Shown: positions 171 to 5,257 of the stretch, piece by piece | Numbering within the stretch: the stretch's first letter is position 1 | How the letters are laid out: each line of letters opens with the position of its first letter | Virus record (IMG/VR): IMGVR_UViG_2571042056_000001 | Location: 1 to 5,506 of that record | Length of the DNA: 5,506 bases | Strand: one strand, 5' to 3' | Source: a virus | Taxonomy: Monodnaviria > Loebvirae > Hofneiviricota > Faserviricetes > Tubulavirales > Inoviridae | Program-made: the position numbers and the translations under genes | Notes under the pieces: model-generated | Seen by the model: the letters and a program-made list of their open reading frames with translations, nothing else | The model's database searches: none | What the model was told of the DNA's origin: nothing

Positions 171-392
171 ATGAAAAAGACCTTTTTGAAATCAGCTGTT
201 GTTATTGCTTCCGTAGTACCTTTTCTGGCTAATGCAGCAGAGTCTGCCGGAGTGGATTTTACTGCATTGACTAATGCAGTGTCATTCGACAGTGTAATTG
301 TGGCAATTATGTCCGTAGCCGGCATTTTGGTTGGTCTTTATGCCTCCATTGCCGGGGCAAAAACAGTTCTGCGTATGATCCGTGGGGCCTGA
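171..392 (+). CDS. Major coat protein, inovirus pVIII-like (73-aa precursor)
   Basis: The ATG at 171 lies in frame inside track ORF 81..392 and is preceded by AAAGAGAG. Product MKKTFLKSAVVIASVVPFLANA/AESAGVDF... has a signal peptide with an ANA-A cleavage motif, an acidic N-terminus, a hydrophobic core (VIVAIMSVAGILVGLYASIAG) and a basic C-terminus (KTVLRMIRGA), the classic pVIII architecture. The N-terminal extension from ATG 81 is not coat-like. Confidence 0.8.
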   Translation: MKKTFLKSAVVIASVVPFLANAAESAGVDFTALTNAVSFDSVIVAIMSVAGILVGLYASIAGAKTVLRMIRGA

Positions 393-397
393 TAATA

Positions 398-430
398 CGG
401 GCAGGGGAAACCCTGCCTTCAGGAGTTTCT
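398..430 (+). terminator. Terminator-like hairpin downstream of the coat gene
   Basis: GGCAGGG (400-406) pairs with CCCTGCC (411-417) around a GAAA tetraloop, followed by TTCAGGAGTTTCT. Ff-type phages have a terminator after gVIII. The T-tract here is weak, so read-through into gIII is likely. Confidence 0.45.
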
Positions 431-514
431 GTGATATTACATTTCTGGCTAATTACCTGTTTTCTCTGGGGTCTTCTTTGTGCCTGGGCAGTTATAAAAG
501 GATTAGGAGGGTAA

Positions 515-1780
515 ATGAAAACTCTTTTAATTGCATTGTTGTTATCTATCATTAGCTTTTATTCATACAGTGCAGAGAACGCAGCTGTTATTAATCAGAC
601 CATTTCAGGAACCATTAAAAACAAAATTACACAGCGTGGTTTCTCAGCGAATGATCCTCGATACTACGGAACATTAAAAGGTATTTCAGGTTATCTAAAT
701 TCTACCGCTTCAGGTTCGAAAGCTTATACCGTTGCAGGTGTCTCTGGTCGTTCGTGGTTATCAGTTGGACTCAGAGGGGCTTTGTTAAGCCGCGGTACGC
801 TTATAGCTCTTGCCGCTTCCGGTGCGGTGGCATGGCTAATTGAAACTGAGGACTCCGTACAAATCAAAGTAAAAGAAATAACGGGAGAGCAGGGTGTTAA
901 AGGGTTTTACTGGAATATTGGCGCAGAAAGCTATGTTACAGCAACTGAGGGAGCTCAGTCGATATGCCAGCATAATCCGACGTTCTGTCAGACATACATA
1001 GTTGAGCAATATAATGCAGACCCGACAAGGTCTGATTTAAGAACCATCAAATTTTATATTGATTCATCTAAAACACAGCTTTGGGCATCACGAACTGCAA
1101 ACCTTGTTTCCTGCGGTACAAATAAGGTTATGCCTACATGTCAGCCTGATTATGTGCCGGGTAGTAATGAAGTAATTAAAACCGTTAGCGTACAGGATGC
1201 TATTAATAGCATTTCAGATACGGAAATGCAGACAGATCTTTCGCCAGAAGTTATTTCTGATGTTGTGAATAATGCATGGCAAAAAGCAGCCTCCGAAGCA
1301 GGGTATTCTGGTTTTGCATACGACCACACCAGACCAGTGACAGCGCGTGATGTAACTGCTTCAACTGGTGCTGCAAAGCCCGCTGTATCTGACTTTCTCA
1401 AACCGTCAGACAAACCCGATTTTACACTACCTGCTGACACAACAGGGACAACACCAACCAATCCATCGACAGGAGAACAGGTTAATCTTGGTGATGATCC
1501 TGGTATTGGGCCGCCTGAACTGGAAAATATACCTGCAGGTACTGAAATTTTATCTCCATTATTATCATTCAACCCCTTTGAAGATTCAGCCGGTGCACTT
1601 AATGCAGAAAGCGAAAGAATTAAATATGCGGAGTGTCCAAAACCTGTACTGGAGGTTTTTAACGGACAATATAAGTTAGAAACACATTGTACATTACTAA
1701 ATAATAACGCTGCGATGATTGGTGTTATTTTTCTGTTCATTTACTCAATAGCAGCGTTCAGAATTATCCTTTCTGCATAA
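515..1780 (+). CDS. Minor coat / adsorption protein, pIII-like (421 aa)
   Basis: Strong SD (AGGAGGG at 505-511) before ATG 515. N-terminal signal peptide (MKTLLIALLLSIISFYSYSA), cysteine pairs in the N-terminal half (SICQHNPTFCQ; CGTNKVMPTCQ) as in pIII N-domains, a Pro/Thr/Gly-rich linker (TTGTTPTNPSTGEQ...DPGIGPPE) and a C-terminal hydrophobic anchor (AAMIGVIFLFIYSIAAFRIIL). Position between the coat gene and the pVI-like gene matches gIII. Confidence 0.75.
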   Translation: MKTLLIALLLSIISFYSYSAENAAVINQTISGTIKNKITQRGFSANDPRYYGTLKGISGYLNSTASGSKAYTVAGVSGRSWLSVGLRGALLSRGTLIALAASGAVAWLIETEDSVQIKVKEITGEQGVKGFYWNIGAESYVTATEGAQSICQHNPTFCQTYIVEQYNADPTRSDLRTIKFYIDSSKTQLWASRTANLVSCGTNKVMPTCQPDYVPGSNEVIKTVSVQDAINSISDTEMQTDLSPEVISDVVNNAWQKAASEAGYSGFAYDHTRPVTARDVTASTGAAKPAVSDFLKPSDKPDFTLPADTTGTTPTNPSTGEQVNLGDDPGIGPPELENIPAGTEILSPLLSFNPFEDSAGALNAESERIKYAECPKPVLEVFNGQYKLETHCTLLNNNAAMIGVIFLFIYSIAAFRIILSA

Positions 1781-1789
1781 AGGTGATTT

Positions 1790-2077
1790 ATGTTTGGCAT
1801 CATGACCTCTGTTTTATATGGCGTTCTTGGGTTTTTATTGCGCTCAGTTATTGTGAAGTTTACGGTGTTTTTTGCATTGTATTTTATTGTGCAGGAATTC
1901 GTGCCGCTTATTCTCGATATGGTTAATCGCCAACTCCCACTTCTTGCGTTAATTTCAAGTATTCCAGATAGCCTGAAATATTTCTTCTCTGTTTTTAAAG
2001 TTATAGATGGGATTAACATAATACTTTCAGCTTTTGTGACTCGCTTTATTATTCGTCGAATTCCGGTAATAGGATAA
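1790..2077 (+). CDS. Small hydrophobic membrane protein, pVI-like minor coat protein (95 aa)
   Basis: RBS AAGGTGA before ATG 1790. Product is strongly hydrophobic with multiple predicted TM segments and sits between the pIII-like and pI-like genes, 10 nt after the gIII stop. Confidence 0.6.
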   Translation: MFGIMTSVLYGVLGFLLRSVIVKFTVFFALYFIVQEFVPLILDMVNRQLPLLALISSIPDSLKYFFSVFKVIDGINIILSAFVTRFIIRRIPVIG

Positions 2078-2081
2078 TTTT

Positions 2082-3107
2082 ATGGCTGTATCATTGTATA
2101 TGGGTGTGATGGGGAGCGGTAAAACATACGAGGTTGTTTACAGTGTTATTATCCCTGCGGTTTCAGCAGGCCGCCGTGTAATCACCAATATCAAAGGGAT
2201 AAATGAAGAGAAAATACATGAGTATTGTCGTTCTAAATTCAAGACTAAGCAGCCTGGTCGTGTTGTTTTCGCATCGACGGATGAAATATTAAAGGATGAT
2301 TTCTTCCCTTTTTACTCTGATGATGAATCTTCAGAACAAAAAGCAGCATTTTGTGAATATGGTGATCTGATTTGTCTTGATGAATTATGGTCAATATGGC
2401 CATCGGACTCAAAACTATCTGAGGCACATAAAAGATTTATTTCAATGCACCGTCATATGACACATGCTGTTAGTGGGGTATCATGTGATTTGGTCATCAT
2501 CAATCAGGGTGTAGATGGTGTACCCCGGTATCTTAAAGAGCGTATTGAATCGACATACCGGATGACCAAGCTAAAATCTCTGGGGCTATCAAAGTCATAT
2601 CGTGTCGATGTTTTTTCTGGTGCCAAGGTATTCAAAAATAATAAAGTCAGTACTCGTAACTATCAGTACAAAAAAGCCGTTTTTGAATTATACAAATCTT
2701 ATGAAACCACTAACGGAATGGAAGCGACAACAGACTCTAGACAAAACGTTTTTTCATCCGCCTTTCTTTGGGTAAAAATTGCATTTTTATTATTTATTGT
2801 ACTGGCTTCTATATATTCAATAAGAACGGTCTGGGTGGATATTAGAGGTGAGTCAGTACCAGAGCCGAAACATACCGAACCGGAAGTTGTACTGCCTTCA
2901 TCAGCAAAGATTGCGAAACCTGATGCCCCGTACTCAAAGCGCTGGCGTATTGCCGGGGAGTTAAAATCAGATTATGTCAGCAAGGTTGTTCTTACAGACA
3001 GCAATGGTCGGTTTAGAACGCTACCGGCAAATCAGTTCGACGGAGAAGGTTTTACTTTAAGTGGAATCATTGATGGTGAAATTGTCACCTATTTTACTGG
3101 GGGTTAA
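2082..3107 (+). CDS. zot: Zot-family (zonula occludens toxin-like) assembly NTPase, inovirus pI homolog (341 aa)
   Basis: N-terminal Walker A P-loop MGVMGSGKTYEV. GRRVITNIKGIN and ISMHRH closely resemble the GRHIITNVRGLN and FDMHRH segments of CTXphi Zot as I recall them. A Walker B-like hydrophobic-Asp-Glu run (LICLDELW), a single TM segment after the NTPase domain (FLWVKIAFLLFIVLASIYSI) and a C-terminal periplasmic-type tail complete the pI/Zot architecture. RBS AGGA 7 nt before the ATG. Confidence 0.9.
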   Translation: MAVSLYMGVMGSGKTYEVVYSVIIPAVSAGRRVITNIKGINEEKIHEYCRSKFKTKQPGRVVFASTDEILKDDFFPFYSDDESSEQKAAFCEYGDLICLDELWSIWPSDSKLSEAHKRFISMHRHMTHAVSGVSCDLVIINQGVDGVPRYLKERIESTYRMTKLKSLGLSKSYRVDVFSGAKVFKNNKVSTRNYQYKKAVFELYKSYETTNGMEATTDSRQNVFSSAFLWVKIAFLLFIVLASIYSIRTVWVDIRGESVPEPKHTEPEVVLPSSAKIAKPDAPYSKRWRIAGELKSDYVSKVVLTDSNGRFRTLPANQFDGEGFTLSGIIDGEIVTYFTGG

Positions 3108-3108
3108 T

Positions 3109-4320
3109 ATGAAATTATTTTATATCATAATAGTGGTATTTATGATTCCACCTGCATTATCAAAAGGCGTTATACTGAATCTCTCAGGATTAACGCTTAA
3201 TGATGCCATTACTTTGTTTTATACTGAAGTTATGAGAAAACCGTTCATGGTTTCTCCTGAACTTATCACGGACAAACGACAAGTTAATTTCAATATTACG
3301 CCAGATATGGATGAGTATACGTTTATTATGCGTTATCTCCAGAATGCCGGAGTCTCTGTAGCCAGAAAAAATGGTGTGGATTACTTTTATCTCCAGGAGA
3401 AAAAAGTATACGAAGCCCCGAAATATTCTTTTGTTTACACACCACAGTACCGTTCTGTTGCTTATCTGGCTGATATTCTTCAGTCACAAGTGAGCGGGTC
3501 ATTTTCAAATGGTGGGCAAATAGGGAATGGCGATGTTTCTCCTGCGATGATTAAAGACAATACCGCATCCGATTTTTTGAGCAGAAATGGGGATGTACTT
3601 GTTTTTTACGGTACGAAAAAAGACATTCAGCGGGTCGAAGATTTGCTTCCTCTTATCGACCGGGCCGCCGAAGAAGTTATTGTCGCCGGGTACGTGTTTG
3701 AGGTTCAGACGTCTGAGCGAAATGGTTCTGGCCTGGCACTGGCTGCCAAACTTATGTCGGGAAAATTCACAATAGAAACGGGTACTGCACAAGGACTCAG
3801 CAACTTTGTCCGTTTCAGTTCTGGATCGCTCGATGCACTTTATGAGTTGTTCAGAACAGACAGCCGTTTTCACGTCGTCAGTTCGCCACAATTGCGGGTC
3901 AGAAATGGCTCTAAAGCATCATTTTCTGTGGGATCTGACGTGCCGGTACTCGGTCAGGTCAGCTATGTTGATGGTCGTCCGGTTCAGTCCATTGATTATC
4001 GTTCAAGTGGCGTAATTTTTAACGTTCAGCCGCAAATCCGGGCTGCTACGATTGACCTTAATATTCATCAGCAACTGTCTAATTTTGCAAAAACAGAGAC
4101 TGGGGTGAATAACAGCCCGACGCTCATTAAACGGGAGGTGAACACCGATGTTTCGCTCAAGGATGGCGACATAATTTTACTTGGTGGTCTGGCTGAGAAT
4201 AAAGACAGTAATGCAGATACGGGCCTGTCATTTTTGCCGTCATGGTTCGGAACAACGGCAACTGAAAAAGCAAAAACAGACATCATTATTGTACTTCAGG
4301 CCAGAAAAATCAGGCGGTGA
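3109..4320 (+). CDS. Secretin, inovirus pIV-like outer-membrane export channel (403 aa)
   Basis: Start chosen at ATG 3109 (GGGGG RBS at 3099-3103, 1 nt after the pI stop) rather than track start 3061. Signal peptide MKLFYIIIVVFMIPPALS. C-terminal secretin-type region with the conserved-looking DGDIILLGGLAENKDSNADTGLSFLP segment followed by a short basic tail. Confidence 0.8.
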   Translation: MKLFYIIIVVFMIPPALSKGVILNLSGLTLNDAITLFYTEVMRKPFMVSPELITDKRQVNFNITPDMDEYTFIMRYLQNAGVSVARKNGVDYFYLQEKKVYEAPKYSFVYTPQYRSVAYLADILQSQVSGSFSNGGQIGNGDVSPAMIKDNTASDFLSRNGDVLVFYGTKKDIQRVEDLLPLIDRAAEEVIVAGYVFEVQTSERNGSGLALAAKLMSGKFTIETGTAQGLSNFVRFSSGSLDALYELFRTDSRFHVVSSPQLRVRNGSKASFSVGSDVPVLGQVSYVDGRPVQSIDYRSSGVIFNVQPQIRAATIDLNIHQQLSNFAKTETGVNNSPTLIKREVNTDVSLKDGDIILLGGLAENKDSNADTGLSFLPSWFGTTATEKAKTDIIIVLQARKIRR

Positions 4321-4454: not shown

Positions 4455-4769
4455 ATGGCTACAAAGTTGAAGTTTATCCGACTGAAAATTGAAGATGAGT
4501 TAATCCAGCCGGTTAATAATCTGGCAGGCATTCGCGATGAGTTAAAGGCCGACATAGCCAGTGAAATCGTTGAGTGGTATCTGAACCAACGAAAAGCAGG
4601 GCATGTACACATACGGTACTTCTCCAGTCCGAAAGGCTCAGATTATCAGGGGATCTGGTTCCATCCGGATACGATCAAACGAGCGAAACAGCAGGCCGAA
4701 GACGATCAACAACCGTTAAACCGACTGATTTATACGGCTCTGGCCCGTTACTTTGAACAATCGATCTAA
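4455..4769 (+). CDS. Hypothetical protein (104 aa); possible regulatory or partner protein of the downstream HTH gene
   Basis: In-frame ATG at 4455 with GGGGA 4 nt upstream. The longer track ORF (GTG at 4317) would run through the GC hairpin and palindrome copy 1, so the shorter start is preferred; ATG 4419 inside the palindrome is another alternative. Mixed charged, non-hydrophobic product (MATKLKFIRLKIEDEL...RLIYTALARYFEQSI) with no motif I can assign. Confidence 0.5.
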   Translation: MATKLKFIRLKIEDELIQPVNNLAGIRDELKADIASEIVEWYLNQRKAGHVHIRYFSSPKGSDYQGIWFHPDTIKRAKQQAEDDQQPLNRLIYTALARYFEQSI

Positions 4770-4827: not shown

Positions 4828-5094
4828 ATGCAGCAATTTGATGTGTCTCATCCGGGCGAAATTATTGCCAGAGAGTTGGCTGAGATGGGCATTAGTGTTA
4901 ACCGATTTATCGAAGAAACTGGCATCCAGCCAGCTTTTTTAGAAGGGAAAATGGCGTTAACCGCTGAGCAGGCCGTTCCGATCGTAGCAATAATGGGAAG
5001 CACTCCTGATTTTTGGTTACGTCTTCAGTATGCATATGATCTGCGACAGCAGAAAAATAAAGCAGAAGCAGGCAAATATGACGATCACAGCTGA
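4828..5094 (+). CDS. higA: HigA/XRE-family helix-turn-helix DNA-binding protein (88 aa); antitoxin-like or phage repressor-like
   Basis: Product MQQFDVSHPGEIIARELAEMGISVNRFIEETGIQPAFLEGKMALTAEQAVPIVAIMGSTPDFWLRLQYAYDLRQ... carries the N-terminal HPGE motif, an HTH core and the GSTPxFWLxLQxxYDL signature typical of HigA/VapI-type proteins. RBS AGGA 9 nt upstream. The symbol is a family-level assignment, not proof of antitoxin function. Confidence 0.8.
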   Translation: MQQFDVSHPGEIIARELAEMGISVNRFIEETGIQPAFLEGKMALTAEQAVPIVAIMGSTPDFWLRLQYAYDLRQQKNKAEAGKYDDHS

Positions 5095-5257
5095 AAAAAT
5101 TGAAAAAAGTTTGAAGCAGGTCAGACGTGAACGGGATGCCTGGGAAAACAGCACATCCCGTACAGGCATAAATCAATATAGACTGATGTGTATTCTTGAG
5201 TCCTTACTGGAAGATCTTGGACCAGAAGGCATCGATATCCAGGATGAAATTAAGTAA
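5078..5257 (+). CDS. Small hypothetical protein (59 aa) overlapping the 3' end of the HTH gene
   Basis: ATG 5078 lies in frame inside track ORF 5030..5257 and overlaps the HTH gene by 17 nt, suggesting translational coupling. Charged, helical-looking product (MTITAEKIEKSLKQVRRERDAWEN...). Weak RBS; the track start at 5030 is an alternative. Confidence 0.35.
   Translation: MTITAEKIEKSLKQVRRERDAWENSTSRTGINQYRLMCILESLLEDLGPEGIDIQDEIK

What the first reader, a model, noticed from the sequence alone, without database searches (positions are those of the whole stretch)
515..1780. pIII-like adsorption protein with Cys-paired N-terminal domains and a Pro/Thr-rich rather than Gly-rich linker
pIII N-terminal domains determine the receptor (pilus type) and co-receptor (TolA). 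This protein has the expected signal peptide, disulfide-type cysteine pairs and C-terminal anchor, but its linker (TLPADTTGTTPTNPSTGEQVNLGDDPGIGPPELEN) differs from the Gly-rich repeats of Ff phages, so the receptor-binding domains may be divergent. That could point to the host receptor and host range.
Basis: partly seen in the sequence, partly recalled or inferred. Interest (0 to 1): 0.4.

Follow-up and report, generated by a model that had tools for sequence, protein, structure and literature searches.

The report
Uncharacterised pIII-type tip protein, filamentous prophage
This gene encodes the tip ("pIII-position") protein of a filamentous prophage sitting at the dif site of a few E. coli strains; it belongs to a large unstudied family that shows no detectable similarity to the M13-type receptor-binding domains, so it is an ordinary kind of gene whose receptor is still unknown.

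Summary
The ORF at 515-1780 (+) is real. It encodes 421 aa and is identical to RefSeq WP_025693549.1, annotated "hypothetical protein". It lies between the major coat gene and a DUF2523 (pVI-like) gene, followed by Zot/pI and secretin/pIV genes. The element is an inovirus prophage present as tandem copies next to dif in 8 of 5,426 complete E. coli genomes.

The signal peptide, three cysteine pairs, C-terminal membrane anchor and absence of Gly-rich repeats are all confirmed.

Two corrections:
- The first ~130 mature residues contain no cysteine. Two Cys pairs lie in a middle domain (aa 121-220) and the third lies just before the anchor.
- Only aa 301-320 of the proposed linker is a variable spacer. 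Its second half (NLGDDPGIGPPELENIP) is the most conserved motif of the family.

The protein belongs to a large unannotated family (1,288 clusters at 50% identity). It has no Pfam match, and its PHROGs are of unknown function. No solved or viral predicted structure matches a pLDDT-83 model. Ff, IKe, If1 and Pf1 g3p are not detectable relatives; only a Cys-x17/18-Cys plus transmembrane motif lines up with them.

It is best read as a functional analogue of pIII with a swappable middle domain. The receptor is unknown. This is a new member of a known kind, of modest interest.

The parts
171..392 (+). Major coat protein gene (pVIII analogue), immediately upstream
   Evidence: phrog_2186 virion structural protein, E=6.6e-19. 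Weak Phage_Coat_B match.
388..423 (+). GC-rich hairpin overlapping the coat-gene stop codon (inner stem GGGCAGGG/CCCUGCCU). Terminator- or attenuator-like element ahead of the pIII-position gene.
   Evidence: RNA fold -22.6 kcal/mol, z = -4.6, 0 of 200 shuffles fold as well. IKe and Pf1 records annotate a stem-loop or terminator at the same place. The U-tract is weak and the simple terminator scan did not report it.
505..510 (+). Shine-Dalgarno AGGAGG, 4 nt upstream of the ATG at 515
   Evidence: Read directly from the sequence.
515..1780 (+). pIII-position gene, 421 aa (WP_025693549.1, 'hypothetical protein')
   Evidence: PHROG 7187 (E=1.5e-46) and PHROG 3942 (E=2.9e-34), both of unknown function.
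515..571 (+). Signal peptide, aa 1-19 (MKTLLIALLLSIISFYSYS). Cleavage before A20 is inferred.
   Evidence: Hydrophobic stretch aa 1-21. The leader aligns with the M13 g3p leader, FYSHS|AE versus FYSYS|AE. The cleavage site is inferred by analogy with M13 and was not predicted by a dedicated tool.
572..874 (+). Conserved N-terminal module, aa 20-120. Two long helices joined by the RGFxxNDPRY motif, then an Ala/Gly-rich hydrophobic beta region. No cysteines.
   Evidence: G42, D47, P48, R49, T53, W81 and W107 are at least 90% conserved in 110 sequences. pLDDT is 71-95. It matches as a separate block in 49 of 147 representatives.
875..1174 (+). Variable middle alpha/beta domain, aa 121-220, holding Cys pairs 151/158 and 200/209. 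Candidate host-specific receptor-binding cassette.
   Evidence: It has the lowest column information and the most indels. It is replaced by unrelated inserts of about 40-240 aa in 49 of 147 representatives. It is absent from the E. coli A37 episome homologue.
1175..1414 (+). Conserved helical domain, aa 221-300
   Evidence: pLDDT about 84-96. Column information 1.6-2.8. This is where the part shared with the A37 episome protein begins, at aa 233.
1415..1474 (+). Variable Pro/Thr-rich spacer, aa 301-320.
   Evidence: Low pLDDT of 55-78. Relatives carry insertions of up to 32 alignment columns here.
1475..1564 (+). Most conserved motif of the family, aa 321-350 (EQVNLGDDPGIGPPELENIPAGTEILSPLL)
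   Evidence: P329, P334 and P348 are invariant. L325, G326, D328, L336, E337, P340 and I345 are at least 89% conserved.
1631..1777 (+). C-terminal module, aa 373-421: EC-P...HC beta hairpin (C374-C392), then a transmembrane anchor ending ...RIILSA
   Evidence: C374 and C392 are invariant. It aligns in register with the Ff g3p C354-C371 region plus anchor, hhalign E=0.06. It matches the PMBT54 ORF8 C-terminus with probability 97.9%.
1790..2077 (+). DUF2523 protein (pVI analogue), the likely tip partner
   Evidence: PF10734, E=1.5e-13. phrog_974 minor head protein. A DUF2523 gene follows a family member in the window and in L008, L009, L010, L012, L013 and PMBT54 (annotated 'DUF2325' in that record), directly downstream; in L014 a 63-aa ORF intervenes.
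2082..3107 (+). Zot/pI assembly ATPase gene
   Evidence: PF05707, E=1.7e-25.
3109..4320 (+). pIV secretin gene
   Evidence: PF00263. phrog_1012, E=1.3e-123. RefSeq CDS coordinates.

Best explanation
The gene encodes the pIII-type minor coat protein of a dif-integrating filamentous (inovirus) prophage of Enterobacterales.

Inferred mechanism, by analogy with Ff pIII:
1. The precursor is exported by Sec. The leader is cut near S19|A20.
2. The protein waits in the inner membrane, held by its C-terminal helix (aa 399-421), while its ectodomain folds in the periplasm and forms three disulfides.
3. At the end of assembly, the conserved C-terminal half (aa ~221-421) joins the DUF2523 (pVI-like) protein to cap the filament and release it from the pI/pIV export machine.
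4. On a new cell, the exposed N-terminal half mediates adsorption and entry.

Within that half, the family-wide conserved, cysteine-free module (aa 20-120) would contact a conserved envelope component. The variable, disulfide-stabilised middle domain (aa 121-220) would be the exchangeable, host-specific receptor binder. The Pro/Thr stretch at aa 301-320 is the flexible tether. The invariant Pro-rich motif at aa 321-350 belongs to the conserved virion/entry module.

Shown here: gene position, topology features, family membership, modular conservation, and the lack of similarity to known N1/N2 domains.

Inferred only: location at the virion tip, a role in assembly termination, receptor binding, and which domain binds what.
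For: - **Synteny.** The order is coat gene, this gene, DUF2523, Zot, secretin in the window. The same order holds for homologues from a metagenome, Pectobacterium, three other E. coli elements and the cultured Pseudomonas inovirus PMBT54. It is the only large ORF between the coat gene and the pVI-like gene.
- **Topology.** It has a leader and a C-terminal anchor. Cysteine parity is even in 103 of 106 relatives.
- **C-terminal motif.** The Cys-x18-Cys hairpin plus transmembrane helix aligns in register with Ff g3p C354-C371 plus anchor and with the PMBT54 ORF8 C-terminus (probability 97.9%).
- **Modularity.** The N module and the C-terminal half are conserved, while the middle is variable or replaced in 49 of 147 representatives. 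A second E. coli inovirus (the A37 episome) shares only aa 233-421 (E=7e-23) and has an unrelated N-terminal half.
- **Upstream element.** A stable hairpin follows the coat gene, as in IKe and Pf1.
- **Prophage context.** Tandem copies lie next to an exact dif site.
Against: - No experiment or characterised homologue exists. Every database name is 'hypothetical protein', and the authors of the PMBT54 paper call ORF8 'cryptic' (PMC10534721).
- Among close relatives (Kluyvera/Salmonella, Yersinia) the middle domain is not more divergent than the rest. Its 'specificity' role therefore rests only on deep-family comparisons.
- In Neisseria MDA phage the pIII-position protein ORF6 is not needed for pilus binding (PMC12819557). 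Position alone does not prove adsorption.
Confidence: 0.75

Rival explanations
1. The protein is a tip/cap protein needed for assembly termination and inner-membrane penetration, but it is not the primary receptor binder. Initial attachment would be made by another virion component, for example the major coat protein binding along a pilus or surface structure, as reported for Neisseria MDA phage.
For: - MDA phage ORF6, in the pIII position, is dispensable for pilus binding but required for transduction (PMC12819557).
- The best conserved parts of this family are the N module, the helical domain and the Pro-rich motif. That fits conserved entry or assembly partners rather than variable receptors.
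- The PMBT54 host shows no pili (PMC10534721).
Against: - The middle domain is swapped like a cassette across the family and between E. coli inoviruses. This is the usual signature of a specificity determinant.
- The 73-aa major coat protein offers little room for specific binding.
Confidence: 0.15
2. The protein is an accessory, host-interaction or virulence-type surface protein carried by the prophage (in the way PuvA of CUS-1 or TspB of Neisseria phages have been discussed), not an essential virion component.
For: One of the 110 family members gives a weak Pfam match to Neisseria_TspB (E=1.9e-5). CUS-1 puvA affects in vivo fitness (PMC4266046).
Against: - PuvA and TspB are themselves regarded as the adsorption proteins of their phages.
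- The gene is core. It is present at the same position in every related element examined, and no other candidate pIII gene exists in the 9-kb unit.
Confidence: 0.05
3. The protein is an ordinary orthologue of a pIII with known receptor specificity (Ff, IKe/I2-2, If1, CTXphi, Pf1), merely diverged.
For: The leader peptide resembles that of M13 g3p. The C-terminal Cys hairpin plus anchor lines up with Ff.
Against: - Pfam finds Phage_Coat_A in M13 and G3P_pilus-bind in IKe, but nothing in this protein.
- The family profile scores Ff, IKe, If1 and I2-2 g3p at E>0.4 and Pf1 orf437 at E=0.036, in a 12-sequence test.
- No PDB hit was found by sequence or profile or by fold.
- tblastn against 50,697 phage records hits only two metagenomic Dulem viruses, over the C-terminal part.
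Confidence: 0.03

Closest known systems
Ff (M13/fd/f1) g3p and its relatives in IKe, I2-2 and If1
   Same: - Same gene position, between gVIII and gVI and upstream of gI and gIV.
- Similar size (421 versus 424 aa).
- Sec leader with a similar cleavage region.
- Modular ectodomain with disulfides.
- Cys-x17/18-Cys hairpin directly before a C-terminal membrane anchor.
- Hairpin after the coat gene.
   Different: - No Phage_Coat_A or G3P_pilus-bind domains.
- No Gly-rich linkers.
- The N-terminal module has no cysteines.
- The predicted fold has no match to solved g3p structures.
- The partner is a DUF2523 protein rather than an Ff-type pVI.
- The protein ends at the membrane helix, with no charged cytoplasmic tail.
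- A conserved Pro-rich motif sits where Ff has a Gly-rich linker.
Pseudomonas phage PMBT54 ORF8 ('coat protein'), from a cultured inovirus
   Same: - Same position, followed by the DUF2523-type protein (written 'DUF2325' in that record), then Zot and secretin genes.
- The last 63 aa are homologous (hhalign probability 97.9%; family profile E=5e-21).
   Different: The remaining ~420 aa are unrelated at the sequence level. Its function and receptor are also unknown, and its host shows no pili (PMC10534721).
pIII-position proteins of other dif-associated E. coli inoviruses: the strain A37 7.4-kb episome (WP_097758692.1) and the strain 300709 prophage (WP_126125404.1)
   Same: They are members of the same family (profile E=1.8e-59 and 1.3e-44). 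They have the same gene neighbourhood, including a DUF2523 gene.
   Different: The A37 protein shares only aa 233-421 (27% identity) and has an unrelated N-terminal half. None of these proteins has been characterised.
UPphi901, Ypfphi and CUS-1: described dif-integrating filamentous prophages of E. coli and Yersinia
   Same: They share the lifestyle: tandem prophage at dif and Enterobacterales hosts. The replication module is distantly related; other E. coli prophages match gene II/V at about 68% nucleotide identity.
   Different: UPphi901 has an IKe-like g3p with GGGES repeats (PMC7307601). No DNA similarity to the window gene was found outside the 8 genomes that carry it. Ypfphi/CUS-1 PuvA could not be compared directly here.

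Membership tests
Ff-type g3p (M13/fd/f1, IKe, I2-2, If1) | N1 (TolA-binding) and N2 (pilus-binding) domain sequence signatures (Pfam Phage_Coat_A PF05357, G3P_pilus-bind PF21443) | tested here: not met
   The window protein has no Pfam hit at E<=0.1. The controls do hit: M13 g3p matches PF05357 at 6e-66, and IKe matches PF21443 at 3e-65. BLASTP aligns only the leader.
Ff-type g3p (M13/fd/f1, IKe, I2-2, If1) | N1/N2 fold | tested here: not met
Ff-type g3p (M13/fd/f1, IKe, I2-2, If1) | Gly-rich (GGGS/EGGGS-type) linkers between domains | tested here: not met
   The sequence has no Gly-rich repeats. The spacer is Pro/Thr-rich.
Ff-type g3p (M13/fd/f1, IKe, I2-2, If1) | Homologous C-terminal domain (disulfide hairpin plus membrane anchor) | tested here: inconclusive
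   hhalign aligns the last 52 columns in register, Cys to Cys and anchor to anchor, but with E=0.06 and probability 0.9%.
Ff-type g3p (M13/fd/f1, IKe, I2-2, If1) | Gene position between the major coat gene and gVI, upstream of gI and gIV | tested here: met
   compared with the gene maps of M13, IKe and If1.
DUF2523-associated pIII-position family (PHROG 7187/3942; no Pfam or NCBIfam model) | Full-length profile match, including the RGFxxNDPRY motif, the NLGxDPxIGxPxLE motif and the C-x18-C plus anchor | tested here: met
   PHROG 7187 E=1.5e-46 and PHROG 3942 E=2.9e-34. The profile finds 1,288 representatives, most of them full-length. Motif conservation is shown.
DUF2523-associated pIII-position family (PHROG 7187/3942; no Pfam or NCBIfam model) | A DUF2523 gene downstream, then Zot and secretin genes | tested here: met
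   Seen in the window and in L007-L010, L012 and L013; in L014 a 63-aa ORF lies between the two genes.
CTXphi pIII (OrfU) | N1 domain fold that binds TolA domain III | tested here: not met
   PDB-wide fold and sequence searches gave no significant hit to any entry. CTXphi pIII-N1 structures exist (Ford et al. 2012, cited in PMC12819557). No direct pairwise comparison with OrfU was run.
Functional class: inovirus adsorption / assembly-termination protein | Located at one virion tip; needed for particle release and for infection; binds a host receptor | not testable with these tools
   This needs virion proteomics or immunogold labelling, a gene knockout and binding assays.

The most novel reading that the evidence does not exclude
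This protein would represent a widespread class of inovirus tip proteins, distinct in structure from Ff and CTXphi pIII. The class spans Gamma- and Betaproteobacteria and is always paired with a DUF2523 pVI-like protein.

In this reading, a cysteine-free N-terminal module and an invariant Pro-rich motif (DPxIGxPxLE) engage a conserved envelope component by a mechanism different from N1-TolA binding. A cassette-like middle domain sets the host range. Entry might not depend on a pilus: the PMBT54 host has no visible pili, and the near-identical protein occurs in both E. coli and Salmonella.
Probability: 0.2. Interest if true: 0.55.

Novelty: new member of a known kind. Interest (0 to 1): 0.3.

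Why it matters
pIII-type proteins set the host range of filamentous phages. They are also the scaffold used to retarget M13 for display and antibacterial work (PMC12477597).

This family has no Pfam model, no solved structure and no known receptor, although it has more than a thousand 50%-identity clusters. It occurs in E. coli, Salmonella, Yersinia, Kluyvera, Pectobacterium, Pseudomonas and Betaproteobacteria.

The domain map given here shows where a receptor-binding cassette could be cut out for chimeras: conserved N module, swappable Cys-paired middle, conserved helical domain, short spacer, invariant Pro-rich motif, anchor. It also shows that the 'linker' should not be treated as a neutral spacer.

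For biology at large this is an expected finding, because pIII proteins are known to be very diverse.

Tried and rejected
- **Nucleotide search of the window.** There was no match in 50,697 phage records or 72,556 plasmids.
- **tblastn of the protein against phages.** It hit only two metagenomic Dulem viruses, over the C-terminal part. A central family member (P0089) added Inovirus D_HF5_61, one more Dulem virus and the PMBT54 C-terminus.
- **PDB by sequence and profile.** Nothing relevant was found.
- **Second transmembrane segment at aa 88-109.** Rejected. Most relatives have a conserved Asp at position 102 and Lys/Asn at 106. The model predicts beta strands there. That topology would also put the disulfide domain in the cytoplasm.
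- **Window as a UPphi901 or IKe-like prophage.** Rejected. UPphi g3p has GGGES repeats and is about 70% identical to IKe (PMC7307601), and the window protein has no IKe similarity.
- **UniRef name for the Pectobacterium homologue.** 'TcpQ C-terminal domain-containing protein' was not reproduced by Pfam scans of 110 members.
- **Genome-collection scan with the broad alignment.** It failed because no conserved stretch was usable. The narrower alignment returned only 5 loci, so the host distribution is only sketched.
- **Ypfphi/CUS-1 PuvA.** It could not be fetched for a direct comparison.
- **Minus-strand ORF 1150-1740 (196 aa) inside the gene.** I treated it as spurious. It was not searched, and all homology and annotation evidence found here is for the plus-strand gene.
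Full report
**What is in the window**

The 5.5-kb window is the structural and assembly module of a filamentous (inovirus) prophage. The genes, in order, are:
- a small ORF that runs in from upstream;
- a 73-aa major coat protein gene at 171-392 (phrog_2186, E=6.6e-19; weak Phage_Coat_B);
- the target ORF at 515-1780;
- a DUF2523 protein gene at 1790-2077 (PF10734, E=1.5e-13; PHROG 'minor head protein');
- a Zot/pI ATPase gene at 2082-3107;
- a pIV secretin gene at 3109-4320;
- small regulator-like genes, including a HigA-family protein.

The whole window is 99.7-100% identical to the chromosomes of 8 of 5,426 complete E. coli genomes, with 1-4 copies per genome. It has no match in the phage or plasmid nucleotide collections.

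In strain EC4 the element is a ~9.2-kb unit carrying an HTH repressor, a pII-like Rep protein, a pV-like ssDNA-binding protein, small ORFs, the coat gene, the target gene, DUF2523, Zot, the secretin and accessory genes. It is present as one full copy and one truncated tandem copy between hipA and ydeT. An exact 28-bp E. coli dif site lies at the distal end. This is the XerCD/dif lifestyle described for CTXphi, Ypfphi/CUS-1 and UPphi (PMC4266046, PMC7307601).

**Checking the observation**

The ORF is real. It has an AGGAGG ribosome-binding site 4 nt before the ATG. It is identical to RefSeq WP_025693549.1, annotated 'hypothetical protein'.

- The hydrophobic leader MKTLLIALLLSIISFYSYS resembles the M13 g3p leader (FYSHS|AE versus FYSYS|AE).
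- The last 23 residues are strongly hydrophobic.
- The six cysteines fall in three close pairs: 151/158, 200/209 and 374/392.
- The quoted Pro/Thr-rich string is at aa 304-338.
- There are no Gly-rich repeats.

Disulfide pairing has indirect support. C374 and C392 are invariant in 110 relatives. In addition, 103 of 106 relatives have an even number of ectodomain cysteines (p = 5e-27).

Two details need correcting:
1. The first ~130 mature residues contain no cysteine.
2. Only aa ~301-320 of the 'linker' is a variable spacer. Residues 321-350 (EQVNLGDDPGIGPPELENIPAGTEILSPLL) form the most conserved block of the family, with P329, P334 and P348 invariant.

**The family**

A word-indexed search found only 14 relatives, from E. 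coli, Salmonella, Yersinia and Pectobacterium; cluster members add Kluyvera. All are annotated as hypothetical. One Pectobacterium entry carries an automatic UniRef 'TcpQ C-terminal domain' name, which Pfam scans do not reproduce.

A profile search of 1.84 billion cluster representatives found 1,288 proteins at E<=1e-3 and 385 at E<=1e-30. Most are 400-530 aa and match over their full length. A pattern scan of species genomes found members in Kluyvera, Pectobacterium, Pseudomonas, Uliginosibacterium and Undibacterium, so the family spans Gamma- and Betaproteobacteria.

There is no Pfam or NCBIfam model. The matching PHROGs, 7187 and 3942, are of unknown function.

Homologues from a metagenome, Pectobacterium, three other E. 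coli elements and the cultured Pseudomonas phage PMBT54 all sit between a small coat gene and a DUF2523 gene, followed by Zot and secretin genes. The PMBT54 authors call their ORF8 'cryptic' and saw no pili on its host (PMC10534721).

**Domain map**

This combines a 110-sequence alignment with an AlphaFold2 model of mean pLDDT 82.8. The modelled sequence is the cluster representative P0001, which differs from the window protein by P170S.

| Residues | Description |
|---|---|
| 1-19 | Leader peptide |
| 20-120 | Conserved, cysteine-free module: two long helices joined by the near-invariant RGFxxNDPRY turn, then an Ala/Gly-rich hydrophobic beta region with W81 and W107 conserved |
| 121-220 | Alpha/beta domain with the two Cys pairs; lowest conservation and most indels |
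| 221-300 | Conserved helical domain, pLDDT about 84-96 |
| 301-320 | Low-confidence, indel-rich Pro/Thr spacer |
| 321-350 | The conserved Pro-rich motif |
| 351-360 | Block that is 59% gaps in the family alignment; the six residues EDSAGA are found only in the window protein and its 66%-identical Kluyvera/Salmonella relative |
| 373-421 | EC-P...HC beta hairpin, then the membrane helix |

In 49 of 147 representatives the profile matches as two separate blocks, roughly positions 1-120 and 200/230-415. Between them lies an unrelated insert of about 40-240 aa. A second E. coli inovirus, a 7.4-kb circular episome in strain A37, shares only aa 233-421 (27% identity, E=7e-23) and has an unrelated N-terminal half. 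The N-terminal half, and above all the middle domain, is therefore exchangeable. The C-terminal half travels with the DUF2523 partner.

Among close relatives (Kluyvera/Salmonella at 66% overall identity, Yersinia at 44%), divergence is spread evenly across the domains. The cluster of sequences at least 90% identical contains both E. coli and many Salmonella serovars.

**Comparison with known pIII proteins**

- BLASTP against M13, IKe and If1 g3p aligns only the leader.
- Pfam finds Phage_Coat_A in M13 and G3P_pilus-bind in IKe, but nothing in this protein.
- The family profile scores Ff, IKe, If1 and I2-2 g3p at E>0.4 and Pf1 orf437 at E=0.036, in a 12-sequence test. It scores the IKe-like 'phage coat protein' of other E. 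coli dif prophages at E>1.
- Profile-profile comparison with an Ff-type g3p alignment finds only the last ~52 columns (E=0.06, probability 0.9%). There, the Cys-Cys hairpin and anchor line up in register.
- Pf1 orf437 gives probability 7.9%. The last 63 aa of PMBT54 ORF8 give 97.9%.
- PDB sequence and profile searches give nothing relevant.
- Foldseek against all PDB chains and against BFVD gives nothing at E<=1e-3. The top BFVD hits are weak and include two Vibrio fs1-type inovirus proteins.

The protein is therefore not a detectable member of the Ff, IKe, If1, CTXphi or Pf1 g3p families. It does share their position, topology and C-terminal motif.

**Most likely mechanism**

These steps are inferred by analogy with Ff pIII and were not shown here. 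The precursor is exported by Sec and its leader is removed. The protein is held in the inner membrane by the C-terminal helix, and disulfides form in the periplasm. The conserved C-terminal half is incorporated with the DUF2523 protein to cap and release the filament. The N-terminal half is then used for adsorption and entry.

The conservation pattern suggests a division of labour. The conserved N module would contact a conserved envelope component. The swappable Cys-paired middle domain would be the specificity determinant.

A stable hairpin overlapping the coat-gene stop codon (-22.6 kcal/mol, z = -4.6) sits where IKe and Pf1 have annotated stem-loops or terminators. This fits low expression of the tip protein relative to the coat protein.

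The main rival is that the protein caps the virion and mediates membrane penetration but is not the primary receptor binder. This is what was reported for MDA phage ORF6 (PMC12819557).

I considered and rejected a second transmembrane segment at aa 88-109. Most relatives carry Asp and Lys/Asn inside that stretch, and the resulting topology would place the disulfide domain in the cytoplasm.

**Relation to described E. coli filamentous prophages**

UPphi901 also forms tandem arrays at dif. However, it is about 70% identical to IKe and its g3p has GGGES repeats (PMC7307601), so it is a different phage.

The replication module of the window's prophage has ~68%-identical DNA relatives in 19 further E. 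coli genomes. These carry either IKe-like coat proteins (L011, L015) or other members of the present family (L012, L013, L014). This shows mosaic exchange between replication and structural modules.

The closest phage records by pI are metagenome-assembled gut inoviruses, at 36-41% identity. No cultured close relative exists.

**Verdict**

The gene is a pIII-position, pIII-topology protein whose receptor-binding part is not detectably related to any characterised one. No receptor can be named, and the 'linker' is half conserved motif.

This is a new member of a known kind. Inovirus adsorption proteins are known to be diverse, so the surprise is low. The practical value is the domain map of a large, unannotated family.

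Noticed in passing
L001:8659-25023 (E. coli EC4 chromosome; the window is L001:12001-17506): The prophage is a tandem array next to dif, between hipA and ydeT. There is one full ~9.2-kb unit and a second copy that breaks off inside the secretin gene, where only a 288-nt CDS remains. An exact 28-bp dif site follows at L001:24996-25023.
   Followed up: partly
window 515-577: The leader peptide and first mature residues (…SFYSYS|AE) closely resemble those of M13 g3p (…PFYSHS|AE), although the rest of the two proteins is unrelated. Close homologues in other genera have different leaders. Whether this is convergence or leader exchange is unclear.
   Followed up: partly
window 388-423: A stable GC-rich hairpin overlaps the coat-gene stop codon (-22.6 kcal/mol, z = -4.6). 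It sits where IKe and Pf1 have annotated stem-loops or terminators. The U-tract is weak, and the simple terminator scan did not report it.
   Followed up: partly
L012:1-7439 (E. coli A37 'plasmid unnamed4', NZ_CP195780.1): This 7,439-bp circular 'plasmid' is a complete inovirus genome, probably a replicative form. A copy also lies in the chromosome of the same strain. Its pIII-position protein shares only the C-terminal half with the window protein.
   Followed up: partly
L014:2387-4249 (E. coli NCTC9040): Here the pIII-position gene is a 529-aa ORF that ends in a Gly/Thr/Asp-rich tail without a membrane anchor. A separate 63-aa ORF follows it, before the DUF2523 gene. This could be a split or frameshifted gene, or a two-gene arrangement.
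   Followed up: no
P0012 (Salmonella enterica, 387 aa, annotated GspD): This protein starts with the pIII-like leader and N-terminus (93% identical over 27% of the query) and ends with the secretin C-terminus. It looks like a deletion that fuses gene III to gene IV in a degraded prophage.
   Followed up: no
window 4828-5094, with neighbours 4455-4769 and 5030-5257: A HigA-family antitoxin gene (TIGR02607, E=1.2e-14) has no recognisable HigB toxin gene beside it. The upstream 104-aa ORF has only weak Arc-like or LexA-regulated-protein hits.
   Followed up: no
window 1150-1740, minus strand: A 196-aa ORF lies antisense inside the pIII-like gene. It was not searched, and all homology and annotation evidence found here is for the plus-strand gene. 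It is probably a chance ORF.
   Followed up: no
P0008 (Pectobacterium brasiliense homologue): UniRef names it 'Toxin co-regulated pilus biosynthesis protein Q C-terminal domain-containing protein'. No TcpQ match appeared in Pfam scans of 110 family members at E<=0.01. One member weakly matched Neisseria_TspB (E=1.9e-5).
   Followed up: partly
L011 and L015 compared with L012-L014 (E. coli dif region): E. coli dif-associated inoviruses combine related replication modules (~68% nucleotide identity) with two unrelated structural sets. One set has an IKe-like g3p followed by an unnamed ~119-aa protein at the pVI position. The other has the present family plus DUF2523. L015 also carries short satellite-like repeats holding only rep, a single-stranded-DNA-binding-protein gene and two ORFs.
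   Followed up: no
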